A DNA stretch of 64,000 nt, from NCBI GenBank assembly GCA_973895155.1, contig OZ316896.1, positions 372,001-436,000 of the forward strand, written 5' to 3'. The notes under the pieces are model-generated. The model did not search any database. It was not told the DNA's origin and saw only the letters and a list, made by a program, of their open reading frames with translations. Every line of letters begins with the position of its first letter. Position 1 is the first letter of the stretch. The DNA comes from Marsupella aquatica (taxonomy: Eukaryota; Plantae; Marchantiophyta). The position numbers and the translations under genes were made by a program. Positions 17,863-60,901 of this stretch are shown in pieces.

Positions 17863-18745
17863 CACTCACTCCCTCCCTCCCTCCCTCCCTGCCTGGTTCG
17901 ATTGATTGATTGCTTCACCCCGGCTGTCCTTGTTCTTCTTCTTTTCTTCCTGTTTCTGCCTGAATCTCACTCACTCCTCCAACCCACCGGAGTTCTAGAA
18001 GCCCACTCCGCCAAACCTTCAAACATGAACCATAACCTGATAACCAGCACTCACTGGAAATGGACCTTCCAACGGCTCTCAATCAGACTACATTCAAAAT
18101 CTGGCTTGCTTGTTGTCTCCCCCCTTCACAATCCCCCCTCCCCACCTCCTGCTATCAATCCTTCGTGCACTCCGCCAGACGAAGAACAACAGTTTATGTA
18201 ACGAGCAAGACACGGAACGCCAGCATGTCATCTAATTGAGGATCAACCAAAACAGCAACAAAGAGTTCACCTATCCGCCCGGGACAAGACACCACTCTAT
18301 TTATCACCAGACAGATCCGTTCTAAAGTTCACAATGTCTCCATGACCCACAAGTTCAGCCAGTCTTCAGTGTCTTGGAAATCATGATACTGTAAAAAGCC
18401 TCATCAAATTTGTCGTAAATACCAAAGAGTCCTGCTTCTCTCCGACGGAGAGGAACCCATGCCAGACCGAATCAATGACATAATCAATTACAATTACGAT
18501 CTCTTCCTGTCGGCTGGCCGTTCTTCCTTCCCTTCCCCCGCCTCCCTCCCTCCCTCCTAGAGGACTGGACCGACGACTGAAGACATTCGATTCAATTTAT
18601 ATCATTCTCGGACATGTCTAGCTAACCCACGTCAGGCTCTGGATTGACCAATTGTTAAATTTCTAATCCAGCACTAAATACTGTACCGTACAGTAATGGG
18701 TGAATCTGTTTCATTATTTTATGTGTATAAATCACTTAAACAACA

Positions 18746-26216: not shown

Positions 26217-29200
26217 TGTTAGACTCTACCTGGTGACCGGACGACCGGATCAGCCAATCACCGGACCGGCACCACTATATGTACCAAACGCCACAGGCTA
26301 TACACCATTCATTCCATTATCACACGTTATCAACACGAGGACTCAGCCAACGGAACCAAGAAAAAAGAAGAAGAAAAGCTATGGAAAATGGAGCAACTTT
26401 AAGTGGCTGAGCGTGGAGACTAAGAAATTTTTTCGAAGGGCCATACCGATTATAAGAATCGAAGAGAAAGAACAAGAACGTTTTTGCAGAGGTTACGAAT
26501 TTCCTCTACACCTAATTACGAACGCATTGCATAGGAATGTGGCTGAAACAGACGCGAGCCCCTTAGAAGATCGAAGGAAGAGGCAGCGCAGGACAAGGAA
26601 CCGGCGCTAGCAGAACCCCTTCGCTGCGCAAAACGAAGGACAGAGGGAAGAAAAGACAATTGAGACAGCCGAACTCAAGAGGAGATGGTGCGAATTGGAG
26701 CAATCATCTATTAGAGCCACTGAAGCATTATCGGATGAAACGACAAAGGAGCGCCATAACCCTATCGAAGAATTGAAAGAGAAAAAGAATGCCAAAAGCA
26801 AAGAGCGAGCACAACCCAAAACCAGAAAGCAGGAGGAGATAAGAATCGAGAGAGATTGGAGGAGATAAGAAGCAAGCAACGGCGAAAGGGTACTAGACTC
26901 GCGAGCAGACCGAAGCGAAACGACCTGTGAGATTTTGAGGATTGACATTGACAGGATTCCTGTAGCCCGAATGGAGAGAAATCCCAACAAATTTGAGAGA
27001 CGATCATGGTTCGCAATTGAAAAAGAAAGACGTTAAGAATAGAAGCGAAATAGTAGAAGGATTGCCAGTCGTTACCTGAGGACTGCACTGAGTGGGATTC
27101 GAAGAGAATCCATAAGGACCCGATAGCAAAAGCCCAAAAGAGAGGAAGGAACCAGCAACCTTGCCCCTTACGCTAGCAGCCAGGAAAATTGAAACAGCGA
27201 TAGAGCAACCGAGAACGGGATTTCTACAGAAGACCATCATAATGGGACAGCATAAGAACCAGATGGCGAAGCAGTAGACCCGCGAGCGAAACCACAGACG
27301 ATTTAGGAAGTGAAATTGAGGAAGCGCAAGAGCAGCGAAGCCCGAGCATAAGCAGATTCATAAGGACACCACAGGGAGACAGGCGAAAACATCCTTGAAA
27401 CAATCCAGTCCTTGAGGCCGTGGCGGCAGCAGAAGCGATGACCACATATCAGAACAAGACCGGGGCACAAACATGAGAATAGCAAGGAAGAGAAAAAGAC
27501 TTCCAATTCGAACAGCGAAGACAACCGCAACGCATCCATAAGGACAAGAGGCGCCACAGGAGCACCAAAAAAAGGAATAGAGGCAGAACACGCAACCTCA
27601 AGGCCCAAAATCATCGACAGAACGTCGAAGCAAGGCCAAACCGCTAAGTGCACCACCTATAACCGCAAAACCTCCATAATTGCATTTTGTAACAAAGAAA
27701 ATCAACCTTACAAAGCCGCATGTGCACTTAACCAAGGCACGAGTAAATTACCACCCATAACTGCACAAACTGCAAAACTTCATTACTGCACATTTTAACA
27801 AAGGAAAGAGCTAATACAAAGGAATTCTTGCAGTTATATATTTACAAAGACAACCTAAATACTAAGTGCAAACCCTAAAATTCTGCAAAAACCCAAACAT
27901 TCTTGCTTTACTCACCCACGACTTAGATTACTCTCCTCAACCCTTTCTCCACCATTACATGCGGCAAATGTGCAGTGTCTTTTGACTATATATATTATAT
28001 AAACACGCACAACAACGCTGCACGCGAGGACCTTAGAGATGACCAACCTCGAGAAACTTACCTTCCCAGCCCTAGAAATCGATGGCGGCAACTACCTAGA
28101 ATGGTCCATGAACCTAAAAGAAAACCTAACCTTGCTAACCCTACTCCCTGCAATAGGGCTCGCTCAACCCATCCTAGCCGGCGAACCACAACCAGACCCA
28201 TTAACTAAAGCCAACAAATCTAAGGCCCTTGTATTCCTTAGACGTCATATCATAGATTCCTACAAAGACAATACATGCACCTCTCAACCCCTCGTGAACT
28301 TGGACAGCGCTCCAAACCCGATTCGACCACCAAAAACTGGTTGAACTACCTAAAGCCAGGCAAGACTGGCTAAACCTGCGAGTCCAAGACTTTACCTCTA
28401 TTTCAGCCTACAATAGCAAACTCTTTAGAATAACATCAACCCTCGCACTATGTGGCGAGCCGGTCACAGATAAGGATCTGCTAGAGAAGACCTTGTCGAC
28501 ATTTCATTCATCGAATGTGTGGCTATCAACACAGTATCGAAACATGAAGTTCGGGCAATACTTCGAGCTCATAGCCCACCTCCTAGTCACCGAAAGAAAC
28601 CAAGAACTTCTTTTCGTAAACTCTAGAAAACGACCTACGGGCACAATGCCCCCAGGACAACAGAATGAAACCCATAACATAGAAAATGATGAACCCTCCA
28701 CATCGAGGCAAGGCATTAAGCGCACTAAGAATGGCAACCGTAGAAACAACCCCAACAGGGGGAGTTTTTTTAACCAACGTCCACAACACAATTTCTGACG
28801 GCCCTTTAGTGGACGAGGAGGACGTGGAGGACGCGATGGACGTGGAGGACACGATGGACATGGAGGATGCGATGGACGTGGCGGACGAGGAGGACGAGGT
28901 GGATGCGGTGGATGCGGCGGTGGAAGAACATATAACAACAACCGCCAAAATGATTGGTCACAATCCCGACCACAACGGGAGTGCCCAAAATGCCATGCAT
29001 GTGGCATGACCAACCACCTAGCCAGAAACTGTAGAATCTCGCAACACCTTAAAGAGCTATATCAACGATCCCTCAGGGACGGACAAACCTCTAGGGCACC
29101 ACCCCGTGAAACCCACGGGGAGTGTATGGAGTCTAGCGACCCATTCCAAGACTTTACAGATCTACCTGCCCAACCCGAGGCACACTTAGTGGCAAGTAGC

Positions 29201-32200
29201 TCCACAACCCAGATCTAAATAGTCACAGCACATGTATTATAGATAGTGCAACTACACACACTATCCTTAGGGATTGACATCTTTTTTACAAGATCACACC
29301 CTCACGTCGATCCCTAACCACTATCAATGGCCCTAGCCAAATAGAAGAGGGCTTCGGCCCAGCTTCCATTAGACTCCCGTAGGGCACAGCAATCCACATA
29401 GAATCTGCTATTTTCGCACCGAACGCAACACGTAATCTCCTCAGTTTTAGAGATATACAAGCGAACGGACTACATGTCTAGACGGGCGATACCAGAGATC
29501 AGGAGTGATACACTTGGTCGAAAATACCCCTACGGGGAGGATTATTAAAGAAACCATTTTCTCGTATCCCTGCGGGTTTTATGTAACACATATTGAATGC
29601 CTGCATAACAATGCCCAAACAAGTGAATTGCCCGCGCTTTGGCATGCATGCCTCGGCCACCCCGGCCAATCAATGCTAAGCAAAATAATTAAGAATTCAA
29701 GTGGCATTCCAATCAATACACGCCACATTCCAGCTAGCACCCCATGCACTGCATGCTCACGCGGCAAATTAATAACAAGGCCCACGACATCAAAATTGCC
29801 AACCAAAATACCCAAATTCTTGGAAATAATCCACGCTGATGTTTGCGGGCCAATTAACCCACCGAGTGGACCATTCCGCTACTTTATGGTATTAATCGAC
29901 GCATCCACTAAATGGTCAAATGTGACACTACTTTCAACGAGGAACATGGTTATGCCTCGCATCTTGGCGCAAATCCTGCGCGTGAAGGCACAATTCCCAG
30001 ATCACCCCATAAAGACACTAAGGGTGGACAATGCAGGGGAATTCACATCTGAAACATTTGACAACTTTTGTACATCACTTGGCATTGACGTACAATACCC
30101 TGTACCCCACGTGCACTTCCAGAATGGATTAGCCAAAGCGGTTATTAAACGACTTCAACTCATTGCACGCTTACTACTAATGCAATCAAAACTCCCTGTC
30201 TCAGCATGGGGACATGCCATATTACAGGCTAATGCATTAATTCAATACCGCCCATCGGCTTTTAATACCTATAGCCCATACCAAATCGCTAATGGTACAA
30301 AACCTGACCTATCACATCTTCGTTCATTTGGATGCCAAGTAATGGTCCCCATTACCCCACCCAAACAAACTAAGATGGGACCTCAACGACAGTTGGGGAT
30401 ATACATCGGATTCGACTCACCGTCCATAATCCGATATATGGAACCTACAACTGGCAATGTTTTTAAAGCCAGATTCCTAGATTGCCATTTTGATGAGCAT
30501 ATTTACCCATCATTAATAACCCCCGAACACCCACAGCCACCTTTGGAGTGGGAAAGACACTCGCCATTTTGGCAAGACCTTAGAACGAATCAAGGGGAGA
30601 AAGAAGTTCAACAAATTTTGCAACTCCACAAGATTGTGGAAGAACTTCCTGACGTTTTCGTTGACACATCACAACTTACCCGCTCACATATTCCAGCTAC
30701 GAGAGCATCTGCTCGCATCGAATTATCAAGTGAGCCAGCAAGTACATCCCAACCTCGTGCAAAACGAGGTAGACCCTTGGGATCAAAAGATAAACAACCA
30801 CGAAGGCGTGGTTCATCTATACCACCTTCACCTGATGTCGATCATACCGAATCTACATCTCAAGAAGAGATCTCTATCCACTACGCACACACAGGTGCGA
30901 TGTGGGATAGAAATACTACTTCAATAGATGATGCTTTTGCATTAATGGTGGCAACACATATTACTGACGAGACACCAGAACCAATATCCATCTTAGAATG
31001 CCAAAACAGACCAGATTGGCCTGAATGGCAAAAAGCTATAAATGGAGAATTAGATTCCCTACTCAACAGACACACTTTTGGCCCAGTCGAGCCAACACCG
31101 CAAGACGTACACCTAATTGGCTACAAGTGGACATTTGTCCACAAAAGAAATGATAAAGGCCAAGTTGTACGCTATAAAGCACGTCTGGTAGGGAAAGGAT
31201 TTACCCAACAACCGGGAATTCATTACGATGAAACTTACTCACCGGTTATGGATAGCACAACATTCCGATACCTTATCGGATTTGCCATTTTCCATAAACT
31301 ACAAATGCGACAACTGGATATTGCGACCGCATATCTATATGGAACTTTAGACACTTGTCTATACATGCGATCACCTCCCGAGTTGGAGCAACGTCGCCGA
31401 GCCCTAGCTCAAGGTGCTAAATCGCATATCCCATATTTACATAAGATTATAACACAATTATCTCAAGTTACACCTTATGTGTCATCTACACATGTAACTC
31501 ATAATAACGACACCACTGTGTCAACCGTACGGAATACTCGCCGCAGACTAGCTATCCGCGTGTTGAAGGCATTATATGGCCTGAAACAAAGTGGCAGAGT
31601 ATGGTATCAAAGATTTACTGATGAAATGCTTAACATGGGTTTTACCCATGATGCAATTACCCCTTGTTTATTTATTAAACATATGGATGACGAATATGTC
31701 ATCGTTTCTATCTATGTTGATGACTTAAACATATTTGGGACACCCCAAATTACCGAAGATACTATTACTCGTCTTAAATCAACATTTGAGATGAAAGACC
31801 TTGGACATATAAACTTTTGCTTAGGATTACAACTGGAGATCTTACCTACTGGCATGATGCTCCATCAAACCACACAAACTGAAAAGATCCTAAAATAGTT
31901 CAATATGAACCTAGCACACCCATTGACGTCACCAATGGTTGTACGTTCATTAGAAAACAATACTGATGTTTTTCGCAAATGCGAAGAACATGAACCACTA
32001 TTAGGACCAGAAACTCCGTATCTTTCTGCGATAGGAGCATTAATGTATCTAGCAAATCAGACACAACCAGACATTGCATTTGCAGTTAACTTACTAGCTA
32101 GACATAGTGCAACTCCCACAGCCAGACACTAGAATGGAGTTAAGCACCTATTTAGATATCTACGTGGAACCACCGATACCGGGTTATTTTACCCATTCGG

Positions 32201-33173
32201 TGCAAACCACGAGCTCATAGGATATGCGGATGCTGGATATCTCTCCGATACTGATACCGCAAAATCCCAAACTGGATATATTTTTACCATAGGGGGTACT
32301 GCTTTTTCTTGGAAAAGCGTGAAACAGACCCTAACAGCAATCTCATCAAATCACTCAGAAATCTTAGCCCTACATGAGGCTAGTCGTGAAGCCGTTTGGT
32401 TACGATCTTTTATAAACCACATCAACACCAAATGCAGCCTACCACCACTAACGAAGCCTACTAACATTTTTGAGGATAACGCAACATGTATACAGCAGAT
32501 CACGAAAGGATTCATCAAAGGTGATCGCGTGGAACATATAGCTCCGAAATTTTTCTACACCCACGAGTTACATGGAAAAGAGATCAACATTTTGCAGATT
32601 TCAAGTGCAGACAACTGTGCGGATCTCTTCACCAAATCACTATCGCCATCAGTTCACCACCGACACTGCCAGGCAATTGGACTACAGAGTGTGCGACGCA
32701 TGATGACCGTGGAGGCTACTGCTCCACATGATACTTGATGATGCTGACGACAGGATGCTGACGACATGCTGCTGATGACCCACTGATGAAACAAATGTTA
32801 AAGCTAGATTTACTATAGCATCTTACTTTATACACTATTGACATTTATAACGACGAGGACTGTTAAGCTGCACTCTTTTTCCTTTAGCACTCATATTTTT
32901 TTCTCTGCTACACTGGTAGAGTTTTTACTAAGCTAGAGTTGATAAAGGTTTTTTAATGAGGCAGTCTACCTCACTTGTACTTATATCATGTATTTCCTAT
33001 AAACATGATATAATAGGTATAGTCTATGTTGTCTACATAGTTGTCACTATATATCCAAAGGGGAGTGTTAGACTCTACCTGGTGACCGGACGACCGGATC
33101 AGCCAATCACCGGACCGGCACCACTATATGTACCAAACGCCACAGGCTATACACCATTCATTCCATTATCACA
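26217..33173 (+). mobile_element. Full-length Ty1/copia LTR retrotransposon, Bianca-type, with identical 108-bp LTRs
   Basis: LTRs 26217-26324 and 33066-33173 are identical. TSD GGTAA (26212-26216, 33174-33178), PBS GTTATCAACACG (26326-26337), PPT AAAGGGGAG before 33066. Gag start MTNLEKLTFPALEIDGGNYLEW is typical of the Bianca lineage. Confidence 0.96.
28039..32738 (+). pseudogene. Bianca-type copia gag-pol, disrupted
   Basis: Gag with RGG-rich tract and CHACGMTNHLARNC knuckle; protease IIDSATTH; integrase HADVCGP..VDNAGEF..HFQNGLA; RT RYKARLVGKG..ALYGLKQSG..IYVDDLNIFG; RNase H GYADAGY..HSEILALHEA. Several stops (e.g. 31896, 32130) and a gag frameshift. Confidence 0.93.
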
Positions 33174-34634: not shown

Positions 34635-36057
34635 TCTATCCATACACCCCTTCTAAAAATAAGTTCCTGCCCAAGTTACCCTTTAACTTTCCCATACCTG
34701 CCACAATGAAAAAATTTAATCAAAATTAAATTAAATTTATTCATATATAAATAATTCTAATTTTTGTGAAATAATTTCAAATATAAATAAAATAGAGATA
34801 AAATATTTTCTCATCTTGACATCTTTTCTTCATATTAAGATCTTCTCATCTCAAGATCTTTGCTCATCAGTCTTGACATATTTTCCTCACCTGGAGATCT
34901 TTTCTCACCTCGACATATATATTATATTTGTCACATTTTGCCATATTTTTCTCACCTGGCCATCTTTATCTCACCACAATATCTTTCTTCACCCTCAACA
35001 TTTCTTTTCATCCTGTCATCTTTTTCTCATCTCGCCATCTTTTTCTCATCTCGCCATCTTTTCTTGACATATTTTCTCACCTCAGAATGTTCTTCTCTAA
35101 TGTGACATATTTTTCTCACATTACCATCTTTTCTCTCCTTGACATATTTTTCTTAGCTCGAAATGTTTTTCTCTTATCGACATATTTTCTCACCTTGATA
35201 TATGTTCTCACCTTAACATGCATCATTTGTGCAATGCACAGGTAGCAGGCCCAAGATGTACTTAACAACATCTTTTATTTCACAACATCTTTGAGTAATG
35301 ACATACTTTATCTATTGACCATTTTGTACTTAACAACATCTTAATACTTAACGACATTTTTGGCATAATGACATCATTGCCGGCATGACATCTACCTACT
35401 TGACACAATTTTTTACTTGATGACCTTTTGGGCAACATGCCATCTTTGGCAAAATGACTTCTTTTTCTTAACAACATATTTTTATTTCATGACATCTTTC
35501 ACATAAGAACATCATTCTTGGGAAACACAACATATAATTCTCTTAAGAGCATTTTGGGCGCCACAACACTTTCCTCTTAGCAACATCTTGGGCGACACTA
35601 CATCTTGGACGCCACAACATCTGTTTTCTTAACAATATCTTGGGCACCATGATATCTTTATTTTAATGACATTTTGGGCGACACAACATCTTTTTTCTTA
35701 ACGACATTTTTTGTGCAATGCACGGGTATTTTCCCTCAACAATGTCTTGGCCTACACGACATCTTTTTCCTCAATGATGTCTTTGCCGAGACAATATCTT
35801 TTTTTCAACGACATCTTGGCCGACATGACAACTTTTTTGTCAACGACCTCTTGGCCAACACGACATCTTTTTTTCTCAATGATTTCTTTTCTCTCAACGA
35901 CCTCTTGGCCGACATGACATCTTTTCTCTCCACAACCTCTTGGCCGACAAGACATCTTTTCTCTCAACGACCTCTTGGCCGACACGACATCTTTTTTTTC
36001 TCAACAACATCTTAGCCGACATGACTTCTTTTGTGCAATGCACAGGTATTGAGCTAG
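34635..36057 (+). mobile_element. Non-autonomous Helitron-like element(s) with minisatellite interior
   Basis: Canonical 3' end: hairpin TGTGCAATGCACA (36032-36044) then CTAG|T (36054-36058). Further internal hairpin copies at ~35228 and ~35712. Interior made of ~19-22-bp repeats (TTTTCTCACCTCGACATC; CTTGGCCGACACGACATCTTT). Candidate A|TC 5' start at 34635 is uncertain. Confidence 0.6.
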
Positions 36058-36156
36058 TTTATTGATAGTTTTTCTCTCTTTTTTTTAGAAGGTTTCATTT
36101 CTTTCCATTTTTTGGGAGAGATTGGAACATACCTTTTGGGAGTTTGTTATTATAAA

Positions 36157-36570
36157 CTAGCCCAATGTCTCTCTGTTGCACAAAAGATGTTGAGGTGAAA
36201 AAATATGTCAAGGTGAAGAAAAGATGTCGGTGTGAAAAAAGTTGTCAATGAGAGAAAAAGATGTCGAGGTGAAGAATGTTGATGTGAAAAAAGTTTAGAT
36301 GAGAGATAAAGATTTCGAGGCAAACAAAAGATGTTGGAGTGAAAAATTTATCAGTGAGAGAAAAAGATGACAAGGTGCAAAAAAGATGTAAAGATGAGGA
36401 AAACATGTCAAGAAGAGAAACGATGTCAAGGGTGAGAGAAAAATGTCATGGTGAGGTAAAGAACACAAAAAAATGCATGTGCATTGCACAGAAGATGTTG
36501 AGGTAAAGGAAAGATGTTGAAAGGAGAAAAAAATGTTGAGGTGAGACAAAGTTGTCGAGGAAACACAAAA
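36157..36570 (-). mobile_element. Second Helitron-like 3' portion, facing the first
   Basis: The minus strand has the same TTCACCTCAACATC repeats, ending TGCAACAGAGAGACATTGGG-CTAG|T (CTAG at 36160-36157). An additional hairpin copy lies at ~36479-36490. Confidence 0.55.
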
Positions 36571-39500
36571 AAATACAGGCAAACTCATTCCCTATATGCT
36601 GCAAAAAGCTTAAAAATGTCATTGTTGCAAAAATGTCATCATTTTGGTTATTATTGTGAACATGTTATTGTTGAGGAGGATAAAGGTGAGAACATGGAGA
36701 TGCAAGATGGGTGACAGTGGCCATTACATCACAAAGTTGTAGCATGATCACCCCAAAAAATGATGCAATTTCTATTAAAATTAATATTCTTAATACATAA
36801 ATATATACATGCTTATCTTTTTAATGGGGGCAGGAAAATACAGAATTATCTCACTTTATCCCTTTCTCTATTTTTCCCTACCCTTTTCATTCTCCTCTTC
36901 CTCAATTATTTGTTCCTTGTTTTTTCTAGCCCTCCCTTCTTTTTTTCTCCATGCCAATTTCTCTTTACCTTCTCCCTCATCTTTGGATAGTGCTTTATCT
37001 TTATATTTTTGTGAGAGTATAATATAATCATTGCACCCTTGTTGAGTTGTAGTCCCCATGGGAGAGTAAAAAAGACAATCTAATACAATTCATAATTGTA
37101 CTCTCAAGTGTAGTTGTTCTTGTTCTCACATAGGCTATTGCACTGTCACTCTGTGTTTATGTGTACAAAAAATAACCAAACAGCTAAAAAAATCACCCAA
37201 CGATCTAACGACTGTTATTCAGTCCCACCCAAAATGCATTTTGTAACGGGACCAAGGACTAAAATGAGTGGGATTCAATATTGTAGATGTAGATTTATTA
37301 TTGAAGAGACCATATGTAATTGTTTTGGGGTTGTTGTGTGGTGCAGCTCATTTTTCCTTAGGGGAAGGGAGGGGCAACATTTTTTTAAATAGGAAAGTCA
37401 ATTAATGTGTGTGAGAAGGTGTGATTAGTTTTGGGTTGGTAGTGGCATGTATGGGGATGCAAGGCAATTATTTACGTGGCCCCCCCTTGAGACTTGCCAA
37501 TCTCTCATCACGATTGGATCCACCTCTCAATTTATTGATTATCCTATTAAATTTTGCTTTTGAATTCCTTTCATGTCGTTCCCCCCTCTTGCCTTCCTTT
37601 TGCCAATCCCGGGGTCCTCACTTATTTCCTTCCAACCCATCACGCGCGAATAAGTATAGGGTTTTTTAATTCAATTTTGCAGAATACTTAAGAAGTTTTG
37701 TTGAAGAACTTTAGGGGTTGAGAAATACATATTGCAACTTAGAATTATAATAGGGGTGCTAAAAACCTCACTTCTTCAAATTAAGTTGTTAGTTTAAGAT
37801 AGGGCATTTTAAGAGAGGCCATATATGAGGAACACGTGTCAGTTTTTAATTGGTACACGTGGCACTTCCTTATGTACTTTAATAGGTTGTAGGGTTTGGG
37901 GGAAAAATGGGGGTTCTGTGGTGCGGTGAGACTTTGAGGGAAAATTTTGAATTATGTGGGCGGGAGATACTGGTGGCTTGGTGGACCATGATGGGGAAGG
38001 GAGGGGTTAGGGTAGGTGGGAGGGTGGGAAGTGTTGGGGCCTTTAGGGCCATGCATTCGATCCATCCATCCATCCATTAGTTGGGCATCCAATGGTTGAG
38101 CGTTGCCTGGCTGTTTAGGGCAAATGTGAGACCGTTGGAGAGGATTGCGCCTTGTGAACGCTACGGAGTGTGCAGGGTGAGCCATGGACCGAGGGGCTAG
38201 GTGTTGCTTTGATCTTTTTCGAAGGAAATGCATGCTGAAACTAGCCGGGCTGCTGCAATCGTGATCGATGTGAGCTGGGGGTCGGGGTCTAGGCATTGCT
38301 TCGAGCATTTCTTGAAGGAAAGTTTACACACAGACTGGGCACTACGGATCTATTGATGGAAGGTGGCAGCTTCGAGTGTAATTGAGGGACGTCGCGAGTG
38401 TGACTAAGGTTGCAGCTGAAGTTGATCGGGACTAGATTGAAAGTGATTGGGCGACTGCGGGCACTGTGGGTGTGATCAAGTTGGCTGCTGGTGGGATTGA
38501 TGTGCAAACTTCAATCACAGCCGCAACATTGATTCAAGTTGTTTTGAAGGAATTTTTTACACACAAGCTGGGCAAGTCTGCGGTTGTGATAGAGGTGTAG
38601 CTGAAGTTGGGGCTGAGTGAAGTTGGCTGCGCGAATGTGGGTGTTGCAACTTAGTTTGATGAAGGCGCGTTGTACATGAACAAGTGAAAAATGCACAGGG
38701 TGAGACGGGGGTCGAGGCTGTGCACTACCGCAAACATTTTTGAGAGGAATGCACACAGATTGGGTGTTGCAGCTGCAATTGAGACCTTGGGCAATATGTG
38801 CAATGGAGTGAGATCGGGGTGCGCTGCTACTGTGATGTCCAAGTGAGGTTGGGGTACGCTGCTACTGCGATTGAGTTGGTAGGGGTGCGTTGGAGCTGCT
38901 ACTGCGATTGTTGATTGAAGTTTGGGTGACCAGTCTGTTGCTGAGTTGCGATTGAGTCACGGTTTACTGTTGCTGTGATTGATCAAGCGGAGGTCAGGGT
39001 GTGCTATTGCGCTGCGTTGCTTGCAAATCCGCATCAAATCAAGATTGAGTGGAGGTTGGGGTGTGCTGCTGTATTGCGCTGCATTGCTGGCTGCTCAAGT
39101 GAAGGTCGAGTGAAGATTGAGTGAGTTTCTGTTGCTGTGATTGAGTCGAGGTGGGGTGATACAAGCTTCGCTGTGTTGCTGGCTGCAAACAAGTTCATAG
39201 AAGGTGTGGTTGAGTGGTTTGCTGGTGCTGCAATTGAGTGGAGGTGGGCTGATTTGAGCTACGCTGATCAAGCTCCGCCCTGAAGTCCAAGTGCAAGTAA
39301 GCTGCCTGATCAAGCTCTGCTCTAGGCTCGCCTGGGTGACTGTGTTGTGTCATGCTTTGACTGCATCTGGTGGAGTTCTCACTCACTTTCCTACTACTTT
39401 AATTTGATCTTTAGACTACATTGTAGTCAATGCTTGGTTTCTTTGCTAGATAGTGCTGTAATCTTTGTGTCTCGTTTGCTCTCAAGTTCCCGATTGACTT

Positions 39501-40621
39501 TGCATGCAGGAAGCCCTATGTACTGTTCTTTTGTTTAGAAGCCAGCTATTTGATGCAACTATTCTAGTGATGTTGGCATGGCCAAAGGAGGACTGGCCTG
39601 AATGCCCACAATAAGTATTATAGCTTAGGGTGGGCGTAGTTCTTCTTCCACCCTCTGGAGTACTGTATGGGGATTCTATTTGCACATGGTTCTTTTTGCA
39701 TGGGACTGACTATATCATTCTTCCCAGAGTTGCTTTTGACTGTGAATAGCTAATCATTCATAGAACAATGCAGTGTTTAGAGCTCTCAAATAATCCATGA
39801 TATATGTACCTCCCCCTCTTTTGCAAGCACCCTGACTACATATTCAAGTGAAAAGAAATAGTACTTTACCATGTTCAACTATGCATTATTCGACTGAACT
39901 AGAAATAGACAATTGAAGGAAGAATCTAATAAGAATTAGATTAGTTGCTGAAAATAAGTCAAGAATCAAAAGCTTTCATTGACATTCAGTTGGCAATGTG
40001 TTGTGCAGCTTGTTCAAGAAGAGGACAGTGCTTGGTCTAGGGTCTGTGTAATTTTAGAACCTGGAATCAGTTCTTGCCAAGGTACGTTAAGTTGTGGCTC
40101 TTGTGTTGACAATGTTATTTCTTGGTTTATGCTCAGTTCTCCATGACTCTGCAATTGTTTACTGTCTGTACAACTAAGCTCTTTTGTACTCCTTTGTTGT
40201 GTCTGGTCTTAGTTATTGGATTTTTATGGTATACTTCATTTGCCTCTCTTAAGTCCTTAGTTTATGCATTTAGTCTCCTATTTGCTCTCTACCAGGGAAT
40301 GAATTTCCATTGGGAATGAACCTGGCCTCGGTTACACTCCTCGAGCTCAGTCACCTACATTTCTGATCAGTTTAAAATATGTTCTGAACTCTTCTTGCAG
40401 GATGGATTGGTTTCCTGATTGGTTTAGGGTGTAGGGGAAGTATTTCAGAAGCTTCAGCAATATACGTTCAAATCCAAAAATTGTGTACAGAGCAGACAAT
40501 CAAGGTAACTAATTATGCTTATCTTCAAGATGCTCAATTTGCAGTTGCACCAATAACTATGAATGTGCTGTTCAATGCTGAATGGATATCGAGGCAGGGG
40601 TTGAAATTGGATGCTAAGTGA

Positions 40622-41334
40622 ATGGAGCATTTGTTGTGCACAGGTAAAATCATCATCAGACAAGCTGAGATGGCTTTAGATGTACCACGGATTGACATAT
40701 TTTCCCATAAGGAGCACCACCGCATGGATCCCCCTTGTTGTTTCTTCTGTGATGAGACAGATGATGTGGTATTTTGTGATGGTCCTTGTAGTAGACATTT
40801 TCACTTCGTTGGTGGAGAAGGTATGCAGGGGGCCATTTGCACTCCTGTCACATTGCCTGAAAACAATGACTGGAGGGCACCCTGGGTTTGTCAACTGTGT
40901 GCTGCCGGTAGAGCTAGATGCTTTGCTTGTGGACTCATTGGCAGATTTGAAAATCCCACAACACAAGAATCTCTTGTGCTCCACTGTGCCCACCCTCATT
41001 GCTTTTCTCATTACCACCCTGGCTGCCTTAGGGTGCTACTTATGGTTGGGGCACTGCCTCATAGGTCTCATCCAGCAAGTCCTAAAAACCTAATGTGCCC
41101 AAGGCATTTTGTGACTACTGTAAAGTCTACAAGGATGGGATTAAAGACTTTGTACAGTGTCGCAGATGCCCTCGCAGTTGGTGTCATGATGAGACACCTT
41201 GGGGGGTGAAACACCTTAGGAGGTGTGTGAAGGGTAGGGACCATTGGGATGTGGAAGGGTGACATTTTATTTATTGTCACAGGCATGCAATACCTGAGGG
41301 GGAATTGGTTCCTATGCAGCCTCATACCTCTTAG
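40622..41334 (+). pseudogene. EDM2/NSD-type composite PHD-finger domain, intronless, with a 1-nt deletion at 41107-41110 and an in-frame TGA at 41260
   Basis: CFFCDETDDVVFCDGPCSRHFH..C..WVCQLC..CFACG..LHCAHPHCFSHYHPGCL..LMCPRHF, then in the shifted frame CDYC..FVQCRRCPRSW..HWDVEG*HFIYCHRHAIPEGELVP..H. This follows the Cys/His spacing of the plant EDM2 PHD region as I recall it. Confidence 0.75.
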
Positions 41335-41609
41335 AGGCTGTGAGAAATATTGCTAGAATTTCTTTGCTAGAGGCCTTATAACATGAGTAATCACATGTGA
41401 ACAATGATAACAAGATTTTGTTTTTGTTGGTCTCCAAATTTGGAGATCAAAAGCTTTTTTGAACTATTTTGGAGTAATCTCTAATACTCTTTGTATTGTT
41501 TTGTTCACTGTGCTATATGGCAGGTTCAGTCTATATGGGAGGTTCTTTACGTGACTGTGATTGTATTTAGAACCCTTGATCACTCTCTAACTTGAACAAA
41601 TTGATTGAA

Positions 41610-44600
41610 ATGGCTGCCCAGTTTGTAAAATTACTTCACAAAAAAAGGGATGTGGTCACTGATGGGAAAGATGAAGAACCTATAGCTGTGTTGGCCTTCA
41701 AAGAAGGACAAACTTTAGCTGATTTTCGAAGTCGAATTCCTGATTTGGTTGATTTTGATTTTGATTTCTGGGATTATAGACTTCCTGGTCGCATGAAGGT
41801 CAAGAGTGAGAAAATGACTGAGTTGTCTGAATTGGATGGGAAAGTTGCTGTCATTGAACAAATAGGATCCTTGCCGACTGGTAGAACACAGTTTCCATCA
41901 GTATCTCCTGCTGTCACCCAATCGGTTGTAGTGGACTCTTCACAAGGTGAACAGCTTCAAGAAGCTCCCCCTATGAGAGCTTCTTTTGAGTCTCTTCTCA
42001 TGTCTCAGGCGGCTGTCAAAGTCTGGAATGATGAATATATAAGACTAGAGAAGTGGATTCACAAGAATGGTTATAAAGCTCATAATTGGAGAATTCGAAC
42101 TTGGGATGAAGGACAGGATGTGAGAGGCCATCTGGAGTGTCTTGAATGTAGAGTGATCTATGGGAGGGCAGACAATTCACAAGATAAGAAGTCAGTTGCT
42201 AATTTGTTCAACAATTTTAAGACCAAGCACCTTGCCTTTGCTAAACACAAAGACAATTACTGCAGGAGAAGGGGCATTGCTATGACTGGGGTCAAGCCCT
42301 CAGATCTTGCACAGAAGCCTGAGTTTGATTATGAGGGGGCCATAGCAACTGGCCTAGAGATAGTCCAGACTCTGAATGTTGAGTGTGGAGGTGATGATGA
42401 GCTATTTCATGTGCCCCCTGTGCCTGGTTTAGCCAATAATGCAAACAAGTGGTTCCTGTATAAGGTCAGGTGTAAGGTTTGTGGGGCAATCATGGATCTG
42501 GTTTGTAAGAAGGGGACTTTGGATCACAACCTGAGGACACACTTGGTCAGTCGGGGTCACCTGGATGTAGTTGAAGCCAGAGAGAATACTGCTGAACTTG
42601 CATTGAGATCTGGAAAGAGGGGCAGACCAAGGAAGCCAGATGAGAGGGATCAACATCCTTCCCAGAATTCAATTTTAAAATTTTTCAAGGAGGATGCTTC
42701 CAATGCAAGCAGCAGCTCTGGCACAGGTGGGTCTGTAGACATCGATATGGGCCTAAGTTTGCTCTGTTGGGGAATATGGGATGAATATGTAGAGTGGAAG
42801 AATGTGAAGTATGTTGTGAAGGGTATCTTGCAGGATCAGCATGGAGGACATGTATGGAATGTGAATGCCACAGTCTCTGTTGATGTCTACAATCCTAATA
42901 CAAATTCTATTGTACATATAGAAAGACTATTTAGGCATAAACAGTGTTGTAGGCTGTCCTTGTATGGTGGAGGGTTTCTGAACTTAACTTGCAGTAGATG
43001 TCATGCTATAACACTAGAAGATGACTTTCGTGGGCGGGTGCACAGGGAAGCGGAGGCTTTAGCAAAGAGAGGGGAAAGAAGCACAGAGGGTGGTTTGAAT
43101 GCACGTTACTTGACACGTCCAGAGTTGACCACACAGATGCATGGTCTCAATGTCAAAAGAAGAAAAGAGAGATGGTTGTTGGCATTACAAACTCAGAAAG
43201 TGTGTGCCCTTAGTACTAGGAAGAGAAAATTGCAAGAACTGTTAGGAGTAGCTGCAGACAGAAAAGATTTGAGACTTTTCCTAAGGAGTATAGTCAATGG
43301 ACATAGGAATGGTGCATTTGGTGGAAAAGAAGGTCTGTGGGATTTTCTGAAAGATGTAGGTAGAAATTTGGAGAGAAGTGCAAGGGGGTTTCGTTACAGT
43401 CAGAAAACAAAAGCCATAGCTCAGGCTATGTTTCAATATGGGGGCCGGCAGGTGGCCCATGTTTTTGCAAGGAACTTAGCTGGGCCAAGCCTGAAGACAC
43501 TAAAACGAGATAGAGCAAAATTTGTTCAATTTCGTGCTGGAATCAGGCCAGAAACATTCAAGGAGGTGGCTCGAATTCTGTCTGCTGCAAAGGAGATATT
43601 GGGAATTGAAGGAGATGTACCTGTCATGCTTGCAGAGGATGAAACCAGGATCAAGGAAAGCCCAAGGTATGTTTGCATATTATAGCACATAATGATGCAA
43701 TTGAAGGTGAAGATTATTTGTGATGCATAGTTTTACCAATTCTTTGAAATTGACTTGGTTTTCATTGGGCTCTCTACAGGTGGGAGGCCAAATATGACAC
43801 TTTGATTGGTTTTTGTGGCCATAAGGATGGGCATACTTGTGAATTTGGATTAGAAATTCTTGTAGGTGATGGTGAGGATGGCTATAACAAGATTGTAAAT
43901 ACATTTGAGGATTTTAACAAGGGAATGTATGCTAGAGTTGTCATTGTGAATCCATTGCATGTTGGAATGCCAAAGTTGGCCCTCTGTGCTATATCAACAT
44001 GTAACAAGTTCAAGGCAGAATGGGTTAGAGAGCACTGGAAGCAATTACAAGAATCTTGGGATCTACATTGCAGAGACTCTGTAGGTCCTTTGCTTGGGCA
44101 TGCTAGTGATGGTGATGCAAGGCGCAGGAAATTGATGTTAGAAGATTACATAGGAGCTAATGGGTCTTACCCTAGATTTTCTGTAGGGTGGGAAGGATGG
44201 CCTTACTCAGTTGCCATATTGCCTAATGGGGACCTGTATGGTTTTGGTGATCAAGACCAGCCTCACAATGGGAAAAAGCTTATTAACCCACTAGATCGAG
44301 TGTCCTCAATAATGGCACTTGGAGACCAACATGCTTCCCTGTTTCATGTCTGTAATGTGTACAATAACTATCCAATCCATCAACATGGATTGAATTGGGA
44401 TGATGTGAACAGATCGGACCGTCAAAACTGGGCTGGTCCCCAAAGGATAGCATCAGAAAAGGTGCGTGACTGTTTAGCAGATTTGCATGGAAGAATTGAT
44501 ATGTTGCATGAAAGAAGTTTGGGGACAGAGTTGTATCTGCAGATCTGTGCAGACTATATTGACATTTTCTACTCCCAGAGACATGACCTGAGGACTAGAG

Positions 44601-46183
44601 TGAAGCTGGCAGGTAAAGTTTCTTGGTTCTTTCGATTGTGGAGGTTGTGGTTGAGGTATGGTGATCATGCTGTAGGTGGAAATGTTGCTTCACATACAGA
44701 GAGAAATATGATATCAATCCAAGCTTTTCATGATGTTAACATGTCATGTCAGTTTATTGTATTGCTTATATGTGCATTTCGTGATAAGTTTTCTCACTTG
44801 TGTATTCCATTTCATGAGTTAGGTTCTGATTGTTGTGAGATATTTTTCAGCAAAGTAGGTGGAATGAGTGGCCACGAGAGGAATTATGATTTTGGCTCCT
44901 TGCTGGACAGTGCTGTAGGGTTAAATTGTCTTGCTGGATTAGAATGTGGACCAGAGGGCTTGAAAATAGCTCAATCACGTAAAAAGCAAGATCATGTATG
45001 GGCCAAGCTTCATCCTTTACTTGAAGGTGAAGATGCACCTAATCTTTTTTATTACTCTGAAGTGCAAACTAATGATTTGGTGGTTGCAGCCTTGAAAGAA
45101 GGTTTTGAAGAAGCAAGAGAGTTTCTTAGAAGGTTACAAATGTCTCCTAGAAGTGATCTGCCAGCAGCAAGAAAGCGATGGTGGACTCACCCTTGGGATG
45201 TGGAAGTTCATACATGGCCAGATTCAGCTATAATAGCAGAGGCAGTTATTGTTGACGATTCTGAAGAGCATGTAGAGCACAGATCTCCAATTGGACCTCG
45301 TCCAGAAGGAGATTTTCATGAATTTGAAGACCCTGAGGAAGATCTAAATCAAATTGATGCATGGTTGGCAGATGAGCTAACCAATCCTGATGATGTTTTG
45401 CAGGATGGGGTTGAGTTAGACATACCAGAAACTCATTCTGTGGAGGTAGATACTTTGGGGCATAAGGTTCGTCATGTGCTGTCTTCTGTTGTAGCTGAGT
45501 TTACACAGTCTTTTCAGAGCCCTCTACAGGAAAAGAAGAAGGTTTTGCCTACAGTTACATATGAGGGTAGAACAATTTACAAATCAACTTTGGTGAGTCA
45601 ATTAGTGGGCAACCCTCATTTGTCTAAAGATAGGCTGACAAGAGTAAAGCAAGTGGCATACTATAATCTTGGTAAGAGGAAACAATGTGATCTGAATACT
45701 GTGACTTGTTTTGTTGATGTTGGGAGTGATTGTGGAGTAGCATTTGAAAGTGCTAATGATGCAGGCCCTTCTACAAGATCAAAAAAGGGGAAAGGTAAGG
45801 GAAGAGGTAAATCTAGGATCCAAGAACCAGTAGTGCAAGTAAAGAAAGAATTTTGGCTTGGTCGGATTATGATGATGAGACAAAAAGTTAAGGGACAATG
45901 GACTAGAGTGAGATCTGCTATTGATTTGCTTGACAGACCAACACCTCCTCATGGACACGTAGGGAGTATTTGTCAGTTCTTGTTCAATTGGTATAAGCCA
46001 ACAAGCTCAAGCAAAGTTGAATTCACTTATGATACAACTGATTTACAATGGATTGATATAGAAATGGTGATGACTAATGTTACTCTAACCATGAAACAAG
46101 AGATTGGATTAGTGTATGTGTTAGATCGAGTTGATAAACAAGCTTTGGATACTTATTTGGAGACCATGTCTAGAGTTGAATGA
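41610..46183 (+). CDS. P-element/THAP9-like DDE transposase, 2 exons (41610-43666, 43780-46183), 1486 aa
   Basis: A GT..AG phase-2 intron (43667-43779) joins LAEDETRIKESPR/WEAKYDTLIGFCG in frame. Motifs: HTH-like GFRYSQKTK..AMFQYGG..LAGPSLKTL; catalytic candidates D (43638), ASDGD (44108) and SDCCEIFFS (E at 44837); DxxH motif DQPHNGKK..NPL; DRQNWAGPQRIAS and DYIDIFYS. N-terminal C2H2-like zinc fingers and an AT-hook KRGRPRK. No premature stops. Confidence 0.85.
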
Positions 46184-46763
46184 TTTTCATGCATCAATAG
46201 TCATGGTAGTAGTTTTAGTATGTATAGGGGATAGGTTAGGGGAATAGGCTAGGGGGTGGCAGATTTGGATACTTGAGCTTCTTGCTCAATCAAGGGTTCA
46301 ATTCCCCTCTGCCACACTCACCATTCAGATTCTTCACTCAATTCCTTTTTGGTGTACCTACCTTTCACATCAGACAAGCACAACAGATTGCAATATGAAT
46401 AACTCATACTGTATATTGCTGAAGCTTCTACTAGAATTGGTATTCTTAGTGGAAGCATTAACACTATATACTATCAGTTTTCCATGAGATATGGATGCCT
46501 AAGGAGCACATTAGGGTTCAAATAAGCTTGACGAAGACCCAAATAAGGTGCGCATTTGAATGAACTTTTCTTTTCTTACTAAGGGGTGTTTAATTCACAA
46601 CAAAACTTTACTTAACTATTTTTAGGGGTCAAAATGTTAGGATTTGGAATTCTTATAAGTATGATAGGGAAGGGGAAAAAAAAATTTACTTAATAAGTTA
46701 GGGGTGCAAGGGTCCAAAACGTCGAGCGTGATATGGGGGTCTCTGTATACTGAGGCCCCCGTG

Positions 46764-46879
46764 TGCTCGACCTCTTTTCCTCACCTTGAAATGTTTTTCT
46801 CTCCTTGACATCTATTTCTCACCTCAACATCTTTTTCTCACCTCAACTTCTTCTATGCAACGCATGGGCATTGGGCTAG
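46764..46879 (+). mobile_element. Truncated Helitron-like 3' end abutting the P-like element
   Basis: TTCTCACCTCAACATC repeats, then hairpin CTATGCAACGCATGG, then CTAG|T (46876-46880). Same family as 34635-36570. Confidence 0.6.
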
Positions 46880-47365
46880 TTTTTTTCATAAAAAAATCCT
46901 TTTTTTATTTTCTTTTTGTGTGTTTTGTATATTTGTATTTTTTGGTGATTTTTATATTTCCTCATTTGTATTTTGTATTTTTTTCATCATGGGCAGGCAC
47001 TTCAGCTTGAGTAGGTGGGCAAGGAAGGGCACAACAGGCAAGGTGGGGCAGGCCTTGTTCTAGGCGTGGAGGGCATGTACTGGCATATGTGAATCCAGGC
47101 CCATGTAGTGGACGAGGAGGAGGGTGTACTTTCCCTGCGAGGTAAGGATGTGTCCGCCAGGGGTAGAAGTGCAAGGCAGGCAAGGAGGGTGCATAGAGGG
47201 ACTCATTTTGTCTGATCTAATGGTTGAGAAAAAACTGCCAGGAAATGAATATTGATGATCAGTCCAGCCCAAATCTTATTTTGTAAGTGGATATAGGCTG
47301 CTACGCAGCCAAAGGTTAAGTAAGCTAAGGTCAGGCCCAACTGCTGTTGAATTCCTGAAATTTTA

Positions 47366-47712
47366 GAGGAATTCAATGATGTGCTCTCGCAGAAGCTACC
47401 TAAAGGTTTACCCTCGCGGAGGGAAGTGGATCACCAAGTTGAGTTGGAGCCAGGTTCGGCTCCTCAGGCTAAAGCTCCTTATCATCTGAACCTGAACGAA
47501 CGAATGATGTTGAAGAACGCCTTGGAAGAGTTGATCTACCAAGGGTTCATTCGTCCTAGCAAGAGTCCTTATGGGGCGCCCGCGCTGTTTGTGTCTAAAA
47601 AGGATGGTACTTTGAGATTGTGCACAGATTATCGGGCCCTCAATAAGCAAATGGTAAAGAACAAGTACCCGTTACCTCATATGAATGACCTCTTCGATTA
47701 CTTCTCCGGGGC
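47366..47712 (+). pseudogene. Ty3/gypsy (chromovirus-like) reverse transcriptase N-terminal fragment
   Basis: [75 protein letters not shown]; ends before the YxDD motif. Confidence 0.88.
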
Positions 47713-48729
47713 TAATCCATTTATCAACTGGCCCCCCATTTTGTATTTGGATTAGTATTAACTTGTATACAGGTTCCTGTTGCCATGTGGTGAGTCACTA
47801 TTGAGTAGCCTTAATCCACCACAACCCCCCCCCCCCACACACAACCCCCCTTGCCCATTGAGGGTCACAATTGTAAGCCCAGGAGGGGCAAAAGCACATC
47901 ATTTTTTGCTCCACACTCCCCTCACAAAAACCCTACACTTTTGGCCCTTGCATTTATTAAGGAATTAGAGCATAGCAGGGATTGCCAGGGAAGGGGAAAG
48001 GGGGCTGAGGGGGGTTGCAACAGGTTGAGGCTAGCCAATAGCGACTCACCACATGACAACAAGAGCCCATATACAATAGAGTTAATACTAGCTAATCCAA
48101 ATATGAAATGGGGGTCGGGTTGAGAAATAATTGTTTAGGGGGCAAGTCAATGATATGGGATATTTTGGGGACAGGTTAATAAAAAGTTGTTTAATTATCT
48201 AATCACTTTTTATTGTATTGCACACCTTTCAAAACCCCTAGAAGCCTACTGTACATAGCTCCTTGGCTCCTCCTCCCCAAGATAGTAGACCTTCATGGCC
48301 ACCCTAGGCACACAATCCAAGGTGACAAAAAAAGTTTAGCAGTCATGGTTGGATTTGATTCATTCCATTTAAGTTTGTCATCACATGACCCATTTTTGGG
48401 GCGAGAGTACATATTGTAGCACTTGATTGATAAGATAGTCTTAAGGCCTTTTTTTACACAATTTAGGGAAGGTTGCTTTAACGTTGGAACAAACTCATAT
48501 ACAAGTACAAATTCTAAAATGTGCACTTATCACATATGCAAACCGCAGATAAGTACAAAGCCCCTGCTTCTTCCCCTCAGTGTGCACTTAGGAAGTTGAC
48601 TGTACAATCAACCATGGTAATACCCAATCTTGCCTTTTTTTCTCATGGTCATTAATGATGAATGAGATCAAATGTTAATAATTAATGGTAACTAAGGGTG
48701 TGCACTTTAAAACTGGTGGTACTTTCTTA

Positions 48730-53568: not shown

Positions 53569-54807
<1,239 letters not shown>

Positions 54808-60427: not shown

Positions 60428-60901
60428 CGTGCCTCGTTCGACACTTCACCGAAATCAATTCCCTGTTGCGCTAAACCCAAACCTCTAACTCAGATTCTTG
60501 AATCTACTGCTACGCATGGGTTCGTAAAAATCTCGTGATTCTCTACACGAGCAACAACACCTCGATCAACTGAGCAGGGCCCTTCCCGCAATAATTATAT
60601 CCGAGCTGCACACAACTTCTTACAACCAATCTTCAGAGCGTTTGAAGGGAGGCGACGATTGCCCCGCGAACTTGCATCTAAAGGAAAACAAGGAAGGCTG
60701 TAAAGCAAAGTTGCACCGAACATGTTCTTCCATATCCTTTCTTTCTTTGTTCTTTTCGTTGGAAGTGGTCCTTCAATTCTTCTGCGAACAGCAAAGAAGC
60801 AAAGAAGAGGCTCTCATCAGCTTCGGCTTCCCCTCCCCAAATTGTGATACGATATCACATAATCCCGCCCAAGATAACGGACAAGACGGCATGCCCACCT
60901 T

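What the first reader, a model, noticed from the sequence alone, without database searches (positions are those of the whole stretch)
37608..46763. P-element-like transposon carrying its own EDM2-type histone reader: a candidate TE-encoded chromatin-sensing or anti-silencing system
Seen: one pair of inverted ends encloses an EDM2-like triple-PHD ORF and, on the same strand, an intact 1486-aa P-type transposase. Established: Arabidopsis EDM2 reads H3K9me2/H3K4me combinations through this composite PHD. With ASI1/IBM2 (BAH-RRM) and AIPP1 it lets transcripts read through TE-containing heterochromatic introns. Known TE-encoded anti-silencing factors, such as VANC of Mutator-like VANDAL elements, are unrelated proteins. 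Inference: the element has captured only the reader module of a host heterochromatin factor. It could use it to be expressed from silenced chromatin, to titrate host EDM2, or to steer integration. I know of no described P-superfamily element with this cargo.
Basis: partly seen in the sequence, partly recalled or inferred. Interest (0 to 1): 0.9.

Follow-up and report, generated by a model that had tools for sequence, protein, structure and literature searches.

The report
P-type transposon carrying a histone-reader gene
A multi-copy plant DNA transposon, whose enzyme is predicted to fold like the fruit-fly P-element transposase, carries a separate small gene for an EDM2/NSD-type histone-reader module that is broken in this copy but open in other copies and likely helps the element engage chosen chromatin.

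Summary
A 9,156-bp element (37608-46763) with short bipartite inverted ends holds an open, one-intron 1,486-aa transposase. A close relative folds like Drosophila P transposase (Z 22 against 10 for the next family). Upstream lies a 221-aa triple-PHD gene. It is broken twice here (frameshift, stop), but contigs from related genomes show both sites open and link the PHD to the transposase start in a second organism. Selection is likely: 9 of 16 listed coding differences are synonymous, and two stand-alone relatives at 56-57% identity keep the zinc ligands. The cargo is lineage-restricted: 0 of 79 loci of distant relatives carry it. It is EDM2/NSD-type but not EDM2. Trees place it nearest a liverwort EDM2-like paralogue group, with long-branch caveats. 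New here: the transposase ends in a predicted BAH- or chromo-like barrel (Z up to 6.8, inconclusive), and the PHD ORF likely lies in an intron of the transposase transcript. No target-site duplication and no THAP domain were found in this copy. Function is untested. My best guess is a chromatin-tethering accessory of the transposase (0.4), with anti-silencing or read-through next (0.3). Transposon-borne readers are known; I did not find this combination in ten literature searches.

The parts
37608..37650 (+). Left end: 13-bp terminal repeat plus subterminal ATCACG box
   Evidence: 34 X2 contigs diverge before 37608
38108..39400 (+). Variable 5' region, CpG-rich, with degenerate 30-90 bp repeats (five GATTGAGT in 38869-39146); likely promoter region
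   Evidence: CpG o/e 0.6 over 37608-39400 against 0.16-0.19 in the genes; repeats; summed contig depth 1-12% of the transposase's
40009..40504 (+). Predicted 5'-UTR exons (40009-40081, 40401-40504) with GT donors at 40082 and 40505
   Evidence: splice-site scan; diverged copies keep sequence up to 40465 and rejoin at 40632-40661 (table 5); no RNA data
40670..41334 (+). Stand-alone triple-PHD gene (EDM2/NSD type), 221 aa when open; pseudogene in this copy (1-nt loss at 41106, TGA at 41260-41262)
41480..41523 (+). Predicted 3' splice site (branch-like CTAAT, pyrimidine tract, AG) ahead of the transposase ATG; no donor-like site between it and the PHD stop
   Evidence: prediction only
41610..43666 (+). 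Transposase exon 1: two C2H2-like zinc motifs, a Cys/His motif, a predicted coiled region, first catalytic acidic motif (E676-D677-E678)
   Evidence: no Pfam family
43667..43779 (+). 113-nt GT-AG intron
   Evidence: relatives run continuously across the junction
43780..46183 (+). Transposase exon 2: D796/D798, D845-x-x-H848, E1039; P-transposase fold
45668..46180 (+). C-terminal beta-barrel of the transposase, predicted BAH- or chromo-barrel-like
   Evidence: model pLDDT 85; best Z 6.8, mostly BAH-bearing chains; Foldseek not significant
46721..46763 (-). Right end
   Evidence: the same end type marks the point where L006, L007 and L008 diverge from each other

Best explanation
This is one copy of a multi-copy plant DNA transposon with a predicted P-type transposase, and its family carries a likely selected, stand-alone triple-PHD gene whose product would act as an accessory that binds histone H3 tails and would tether the transposase to chosen nucleosomes. 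Shown: ends, open transposase, PHD gene open in other copies and adjacent to the transposase in a second organism. Predicted: P-type fold; a BAH- or chromo-like C-terminal barrel; one transcription unit giving PHD and transposase mRNAs by alternative splicing or 3'-end choice. Inferred: an old capture from a liverwort-type EDM2-like paralogue in one sub-lineage; H3 binding; contact with the transposase; an effect on which chromatin the element cuts from or inserts into. Reasoning: a reader with no catalytic or recognisable DNA-binding domain can favour its own family most simply through the family's transposase.
For: Fold: Riccia stand-in P0003 (46% identical) matches P transposase at E 3.9e-8 and Z 22.2 (rmsd 3.4, 344 aligned); next family Z 10.1. 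Catalytic motifs nearly invariant across 31-41 aligned rows. A base is put in behind 41106 in contigs of 5 of 5 runs laid; TGA reads TGG in 4 of 4 runs that cover it. X5 records 22 and 23 run from PHD coding DNA into the transposase start; X5 record 20 spans 40757-41261 with 39 substitutions and one gap. PHD-to-transposase depth ratio 0.51-1.19 in 4 runs (the tool warns this is no copy number). 9 of 16 coding differences synonymous against 21-27% expected, p 0.002-0.011; transposase 13 of 22. P0068 and P0197 are full-length open stand-alone relatives at 56-57% identity; 22 of 25 host-conserved Cys/His columns are kept in all three. Precedent: readers on transposons, and chromodomain-guided integration.
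Against: The cargo is absent from 79 of 79 loci of distant relatives, including two full-length elements, L001 and L031, so transposition in this clade does not need it; only 18 of the 79 have over 1 kb upstream. The window copy lost the PHD gene while keeping an open transposase. The synonymous test rests on the 40 best-supported of 278 rows, not a proper dN/dS. The genomic context of P0068 and P0197 is unknown. In finger 3 one Cys ligand is replaced by E/K/D and a His by Cys. The C-terminal barrel scores under the tool's Z 8 caution, ties with chromo barrels, and has no Pfam BAH hit. No insertion-site, expression or binding data exist.
Confidence: 0.4

Rival explanations
1. Anti-silencing or self-expression. 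The PHD protein would bind the element's own heterochromatin and favour read-through past the PHD 3' end to the transposase exon, as the host ASI1-AIPP1-EDM2 complex does for heterochromatic introns, or would compete with host readers.
For: The PHD ORF lies between predicted UTR donors and a predicted acceptor at 41523, with no donor-like site after its stop, so a proximal-versus-distal choice is plausible. The gene bodies have the lowest CpG o/e of the window, 0.16-0.19, consistent with long life in methylated chromatin. Host EDM2 binds H3K9me2 and promotes distal polyadenylation. The variable 5' region with degenerate repeats recalls VANC target arrays.
Against: A free reader has no evident way to tell its own family from other heterochromatin. 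Strong CpG loss argues against VANC-like demethylation of the body. The nearest host group is probably not EDM2 proper.
Confidence: 0.3
2. Self-limiting regulator or other non-histone role. The protein would be a zinc-finger interaction module that dampens or chaperones the transposase, like the splice-derived repressor of Drosophila P (recalled).
For: A very long stem branch from host modules and altered finger 3 allow a changed function. Loss in a copy with an open transposase is expected if it restrains transposition.
Against: Finger 1 keeps the acidic motif and tryptophan typical of H3-binding PHDs (alignment; their role is recalled); the profile also matches AIRE, CHD4 and PHF21A fingers.
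Confidence: 0.15
3. Passenger: a captured host fragment that spread with a successful family and is decaying.
For: Broken twice in this copy; in three runs part of the depth over 41106 does not show the extra base; P0070 is a degenerate relative; absent from distant relatives.
Against: Open frames and conserved ligands at 43% amino-acid divergence; synonymous excess like the transposase's; neighbouring non-coding DNA carries many non-triplet indels in other copies, while the only indel shown inside the ORF restores the frame (table 4; 40 rows hidden).
Confidence: 0.12

Closest known systems
P superfamily (Drosophila P, Galileo, 1360, THAP9)
   Same: Catalytic-core fold, DDE plus D(2)H motif, short terminal inverted repeats, intron-bearing transposase.
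   Different: 1,486 aa against 822 aa for the D. buzzatii P transposase; no Pfam THAP; extra C-terminal barrel; ends read C(C/A)CGGGG; a second gene; plant host; no 7-8 bp duplication in this copy.
EDM2 and bryophyte EDM2-like proteins; NSD1/2/3 PHD1-3
   Same: Same three-finger module (PF23011, PF22908, PF23004); best host hits are liverwort and moss EDM2-like proteins; best solved relatives are NSD2 and NSD3.
   Different: Stand-alone 221 aa; about 30% identity; no RFD or methyltransferase-like domain; altered finger 3; transposon-borne.
Transposon-borne chromatin readers (chromodomain retrotransposons; PHD and Chromo fusions of Grau-Bove et al., bioRxiv 2021.11.30.470311; Rehavkus PHD, PMC6446971; AcademHP, recalled)
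   Same: A histone-reader domain maintained on a mobile element.
   Different: The cases in the passages read are fusions to the element's own protein. This is a separate gene with a triple EDM2/NSD-type module on a P-type element.
VANC of VANDAL Mutator-like elements (PMC5735166)
   Same: An extra element-encoded gene with a proposed chromatin role; a variable repeat-bearing non-coding region.
   Different: VANC binds DNA motifs and causes demethylation (abstract and section titles). The cargo is a PHD module, and nothing here shows demethylation.
RAG1-RAG2 (recalled)
   Same: A DDE recombinase guided by a PHD in a separate protein; RAG1 is a lower fold hit.
   Different: Different PHD type and transposase family; binding is untested here. 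An analogy only.

Membership tests
P superfamily | DDE triad with D(2)H motif | tested here: met
   E676-D677-E678, D796/D798, D845-x-x-H848, E1039; nearly invariant; feature stated
P superfamily | P-transposase catalytic fold | tested here: met
   stand-in P0003: Z 22.2, rmsd 3.4, 344 aligned; next family 10.1. PF21787 above cut-off in distant relatives P0062 and P0064 over the homologous motif, weak in 2 of 30 closer ones
P superfamily | Terminal inverted repeats | tested here: met
   11 of 13 plus a subterminal box; a perfect 14-bp pair in L001
P superfamily | 7-8 bp target-site duplication | tested here: inconclusive
   none in the window or L001; a 7-8 bp repeat with a 1-2 base offset flanks L031: 1 of 3 two-ended copies
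P superfamily | N-terminal THAP domain (animal P elements) | tested here: not met
   no PF05485 in the window exons or three long relatives; other zinc motifs are present. I therefore call it P-type and leave formal membership open
EDM2 family | EDM2/NSD-type PHD module | tested here: met
EDM2 family | RFD and methyltransferase-like (ELP) domains | tested here: not met
   the 221-aa ORF is filled by the module; domains described
EDM2 family | Descent from the EDM2 orthogroup | tested here: inconclusive
   joins a liverwort paralogue group at 100/99, at 84/79 with a second stand-alone clade, not (p-AU 0.215); vascular EDM2 p-AU 0.043 and 0.068; unrooted, long branch
EDM2 family | Binds H3K9me2-marked chromatin | not testable with these tools
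   needs peptide or nucleosome assays
BAH domain (transposase C terminus) | BAH fold | tested here: inconclusive
   15 of the top 18 of 48,161 chains are BAH-bearing (8 by title, 7 by recall), best Z 6.8, rmsd 2.4, 81 aligned; chromo barrels tie at 6.2-6.4
BAH domain (transposase C terminus) | Pfam BAH profile match | tested here: not met
   no hit at E up to 10 for three versions of the domain
BAH domain (transposase C terminus) | Methyl-lysine aromatic cage | not tested
   conserved aromatics exist but were not mapped onto a solved cage
VANC-type anti-silencing factor | Sequence-specific binding and demethylation of own family | not testable with these tools
   CpG depletion of the body is if anything against it; no comparison with VANC sequences was run
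Neutral captured fragment (Pack-type cargo) | No purifying selection on the cargo | tested here: not met
   crude test, see caveats

The most novel reading that the evidence does not exclude
The element encodes a two-part chromatin-reading kit that parallels the host's BAH (ASI1) plus PHD (EDM2) pair: a BAH-like tail on the transposase and a PHD protein from the same transcript. The PHD protein reads the element's own silencing marks and switches splicing or 3'-end choice towards transposase mRNA, so that being silenced licenses expression. It would sit in an undescribed land-plant branch of P-type elements.
Probability: 0.12. Interest if true: 0.9.

Novelty: new variant of a known kind. Interest (0 to 1): 0.64.

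Why it matters
Few cut-and-paste transposons have a known, dedicated chromatin accessory. A maintained stand-alone EDM2/NSD-type reader on a P-type element gives a compact, testable case of how a DNA transposon senses host marks, whether to choose insertion sites or to be expressed from heterochromatin. The family also looks like a land-plant branch of P-type transposases that Pfam misses, with conserved C(C/A)CGGGG ends and a possible reader-like C-terminal domain. If the accessory steers integration, it suggests a way to aim a transposase at a chromatin state.

Tried and rejected
No whole genome is held, so copies could not be counted directly. No RNA holder was listed; this says nothing on expression. 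Sequence searches of solved structures found nothing for the transposase or the single PHD piece. The word-based protein search found no PHD relative; the HMMER search found 108. Viral contigs: no PHD or transposase relative. Prokaryote contigs: none. Rfam: no match. The atlas gave only unnamed clusters under 0.9 for the C-terminal domain. My first splice join was off and gave a false frameshift; corrected. The 40401-40504 exon was first read as coding, then dropped: it holds a stop at 40432 for which no change was listed in other copies, and P0068 starts at the 40670 ATG position. A PHD-transposase fusion protein was rejected because other copies have non-triplet indels at 41581-41587. The 19-bp repeats that give the longest inverted pairs around the element belong to a different flanking repeat. 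A generic CA...TG plus duplication search in 21 loci gave only AT-rich chance pairs. By eye, the Riccia locus tags of transposase hits are not adjacent to those of the two Riccia PHD hits. A CACTA/CMC assignment, suggested by the C(C/A)C ends (recalled rule), was dropped because fold and motifs are P-type. Four look-ups of earlier findings returned nothing.
Full report
1. What is in the sequence. The window is plant DNA rich in LTR-retrotransposon fragments, with a P450 gene and a ribosomal-protein gene. No assembly is held. The element runs from 37608 to 46763. Its ends match at 11 of 13 terminal bases and again in a subterminal box at the same offset. That is the best ungapped match in the window but only just (25 of 43 against 24). 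The boundary is fixed independently: 34 contigs of run X2 diverge before 37608. Distant relatives share the end: L006, L007 and L008 part from each other right after CCCGGG, and L001 has a perfect 14-bp pair. No target-site duplication flanks this copy or L001; L031 has a 7-8 bp repeat with a 1-2 base offset in a C run.

2. The transposase. Two exons, 41610-43666 and 43780-46183, give 1,486 aa without an internal stop. Pfam finds nothing in it. A search with exon 2 gave 67 relatives; the named ones are mostly Riccia proteins, and in a tree the window groups with unnamed P0001 and P0002, sister to Riccia (98). I infer a liverwort-type host; this is not shown. A model of the Riccia relative P0003 (pLDDT 83; 46% identical) matches Drosophila P transposase at E 3.9e-8 with RAG1 next at 1.6e-2, and at Z 22.2 against 10.1 for Transib. 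The acidic triad and the D(2)H motif are nearly invariant. A THAP domain is not detected; two C2H2-like motifs and a Cys/His motif are conserved instead. I call it P-type; formal membership awaits target-site duplications.

3. A possible reader on the transposase itself. The last 170 residues fold as a beta-barrel (pLDDT 85). Foldseek finds nothing significant; DNMT1 and the ASI1 BAH are ranks 1 and 3. Against 48,161 chains, 15 of the top 18 are BAH-bearing (8 by title, 7 by my recall of the aligned range) and 3 are chromo barrels; best Z is 6.8, under the tool's caution level. Pfam BAH does not match. The domain is present across the clade, also in elements without the PHD gene. It is a lead only.

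4. The cargo. The PHD gene starts at 40670 and ends at 41334. In this copy it has a 1-nt loss at 41106 and a TGA at 41260. In contigs laid on the region, a base is put in behind 41106 in 5 of 5 runs (all of the depth in X5, about half in X2 and X3, less in X1 and X6), and the TGA reads TGG in the 4 runs that cover it. In X5 (organism B), records 22 and 23 run from PHD coding DNA into the transposase start, and record 20 spans 505 bases of the gene with 39 substitutions and one gap. Summed depth over the PHD is 0.51-1.19 of the transposase median in 4 runs, while 38202-39871 is at 0.01-0.12; the tool warns that this is no copy number. No listed contig spans the whole element.

5. Selection. Of the 40 rows shown of 278, 17 fall in the PHD frame. 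Leaving out the stop, 9 of 16 are synonymous against 21-27% expected (p 0.002-0.011); the transposase gives 13 of 22. This is a crude test on a filtered list. Stronger: P0068 (226 aa) and P0197 (247 aa, cluster of 3) are open stand-alone proteins 56-57% identical to each other and to the window's, and all three keep 22 of 25 Cys/His columns conserved in 18 host proteins. The exceptions are two ligands of finger 3 and a terminal His. Their genomic context is unknown. Loose ends at 40743 in X2, X3 and X5 read, by eye, like the P0197 sequence, so that type probably occurs in the same organisms.

6. Distribution. None of 79 metagenome loci of transposase relatives holds a PHD by tblastn or by a profile that finds the window's gene at E 9e-37. 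Only 18 have over 1 kb upstream, two are full-length elements (L001, L031), and none of the 17 placed in the tree is in the window's subclade. The cargo is thus a sub-lineage gain, not needed for the clade's transposition.

7. Origin. The module is EDM2/NSD-type. Of 108 hits, the best host proteins are liverwort and moss EDM2-like proteins. Full-length identity to all host modules is about 25-32%. In small trees the cargo joins a liverwort paralogue group (Marchantia MPTK1_1g03210, Riccia R1sor_003797, Calypogeia), with which it shares a DPP motif before finger 1: 100/99 with seven long-branch and four redundant rows left out, 84/79 with a second stand-alone clade put back, and not, where it is not rejected (p-AU 0.215). 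Grouping with vascular EDM2 gives p-AU 0.043 and 0.068. The trees are unrooted and the stem is long, so the donor is likely, not shown. The 113-row quick tree left it unplaced.

8. Transcript anatomy (predicted). Donor-like sites lie at 40082, 40505, 40644, 40821 and 41223. A clear acceptor ends at 41523, 86 bases before the transposase ATG, with no donor-like site between it and the PHD stop. A transposase mRNA using it would splice out all or part of the PHD ORF. Non-triplet indels at 41581-41587 in other copies rule out a simple read-through fusion. The gene bodies are the most CpG-depleted part of the window (0.16-0.19), the 5' region is not (0.6). No RNA run was listed.

9. Mechanism. I commit to a chromatin-tethering accessory (0.4): the PHD protein would bind H3 tails and the transposase, biasing where the element acts. 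A bare reader needs a family-specific partner to benefit its own element, and the known precedent for readers on transposons is targeting. Anti-silencing or read-through is close behind (0.3), helped by the intron-like position and by what host EDM2 does. A self-limiting or non-histone role (0.15) and a passenger (0.12) follow. No step past 'maintained cargo' is tested.

10. Literature. Ten full-text searches listed no paper on a P-type element with a PHD cargo or on P-type elements in bryophytes; three of them returned no paper at all. The library lacks most subscription journals and Repbase, so this is not proof of absence. Seen: passages of PMC6446971 (Rehavkus PHD, VANC); passages and section 10 of bioRxiv 2021.11.30.470311 (823 candidate chromatin-TE fusions, mostly PHD and Chromo; its supplements were not seen and may bear on novelty); passages of PMC7472560, PMC10799480, PMC3698922, PMC10241880, PMC7529245 and PMC3632883; abstract and outline of PMC5735166. 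The other hits were seen as listings only. AcademHP, RAG2, the P repressor, CMC ends and PHD binding residues are recalled.

11. Verdict. A real, multi-copy P-type transposon with a likely selected stand-alone EDM2/NSD-type reader gene; a new variant of the known theme of transposon-borne chromatin readers, function untested. Interest 0.64.

Noticed in passing
proteins P0077, P0086, P0093, P0131, P0194-P0196: A second clade of stand-alone, about 220-aa triple-PHD proteins from unnamed Logan and JGI contigs, about 30% identical to the window's. Context unknown; possibly a second transposon-borne reader lineage.
   Followed up: partly
L001:308-9065: A complete relative with perfect 14-bp terminal repeats and no PHD; 3.3 kb downstream of its transposase holds a 174-aa ORF (7003-7524) with no Pfam match, perhaps a different cargo.
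   Followed up: partly
L053:2565-7935 (minus strand): A second element copy head-to-head with the first: a CACGGGGGCGTCA end, about 4 kb of 5' region with tandem repeats, then a broken transposase N terminus; no PHD found.
   Followed up: partly
L019, L020, L025, L026, L030, L031; P0043, P0057, P0060, P0062, P0063: The transposase clade reaches well beyond plants (named hit in Nymphon; several divergent branches at 25-37% identity), and L030 and L031 share the CCCGGGG ends.
   Followed up: partly
window 34800-36570 and 46764-46880: A dispersed repeat of 18-19 and 35-bp units ending in GCTAG-T, in both orientations; Helitron-like by its end (recalled rule). The element's right flank lies in one copy, the left flank does not.
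   Followed up: no
window 37608-37870: Contig depth is several times that of the transposase in three of four runs, suggesting many short non-autonomous derivatives of the left end.
   Followed up: no
window 16357-17865 (-), 54025-54477 (+), 58049-60445 (+): Host genes: an intronless P450, a ribosomal L7Ae/S12e-family exon, and LEA-like ORFs (by eye).
   Followed up: no
window 1040-2893, 5017-8762, 28298-32738, 47351-47755: Copia-like and Gypsy-like retrotransposon fragments (by eye; weak RVT_1 hit), much less CpG-depleted than the P-type element.
   Followed up: no
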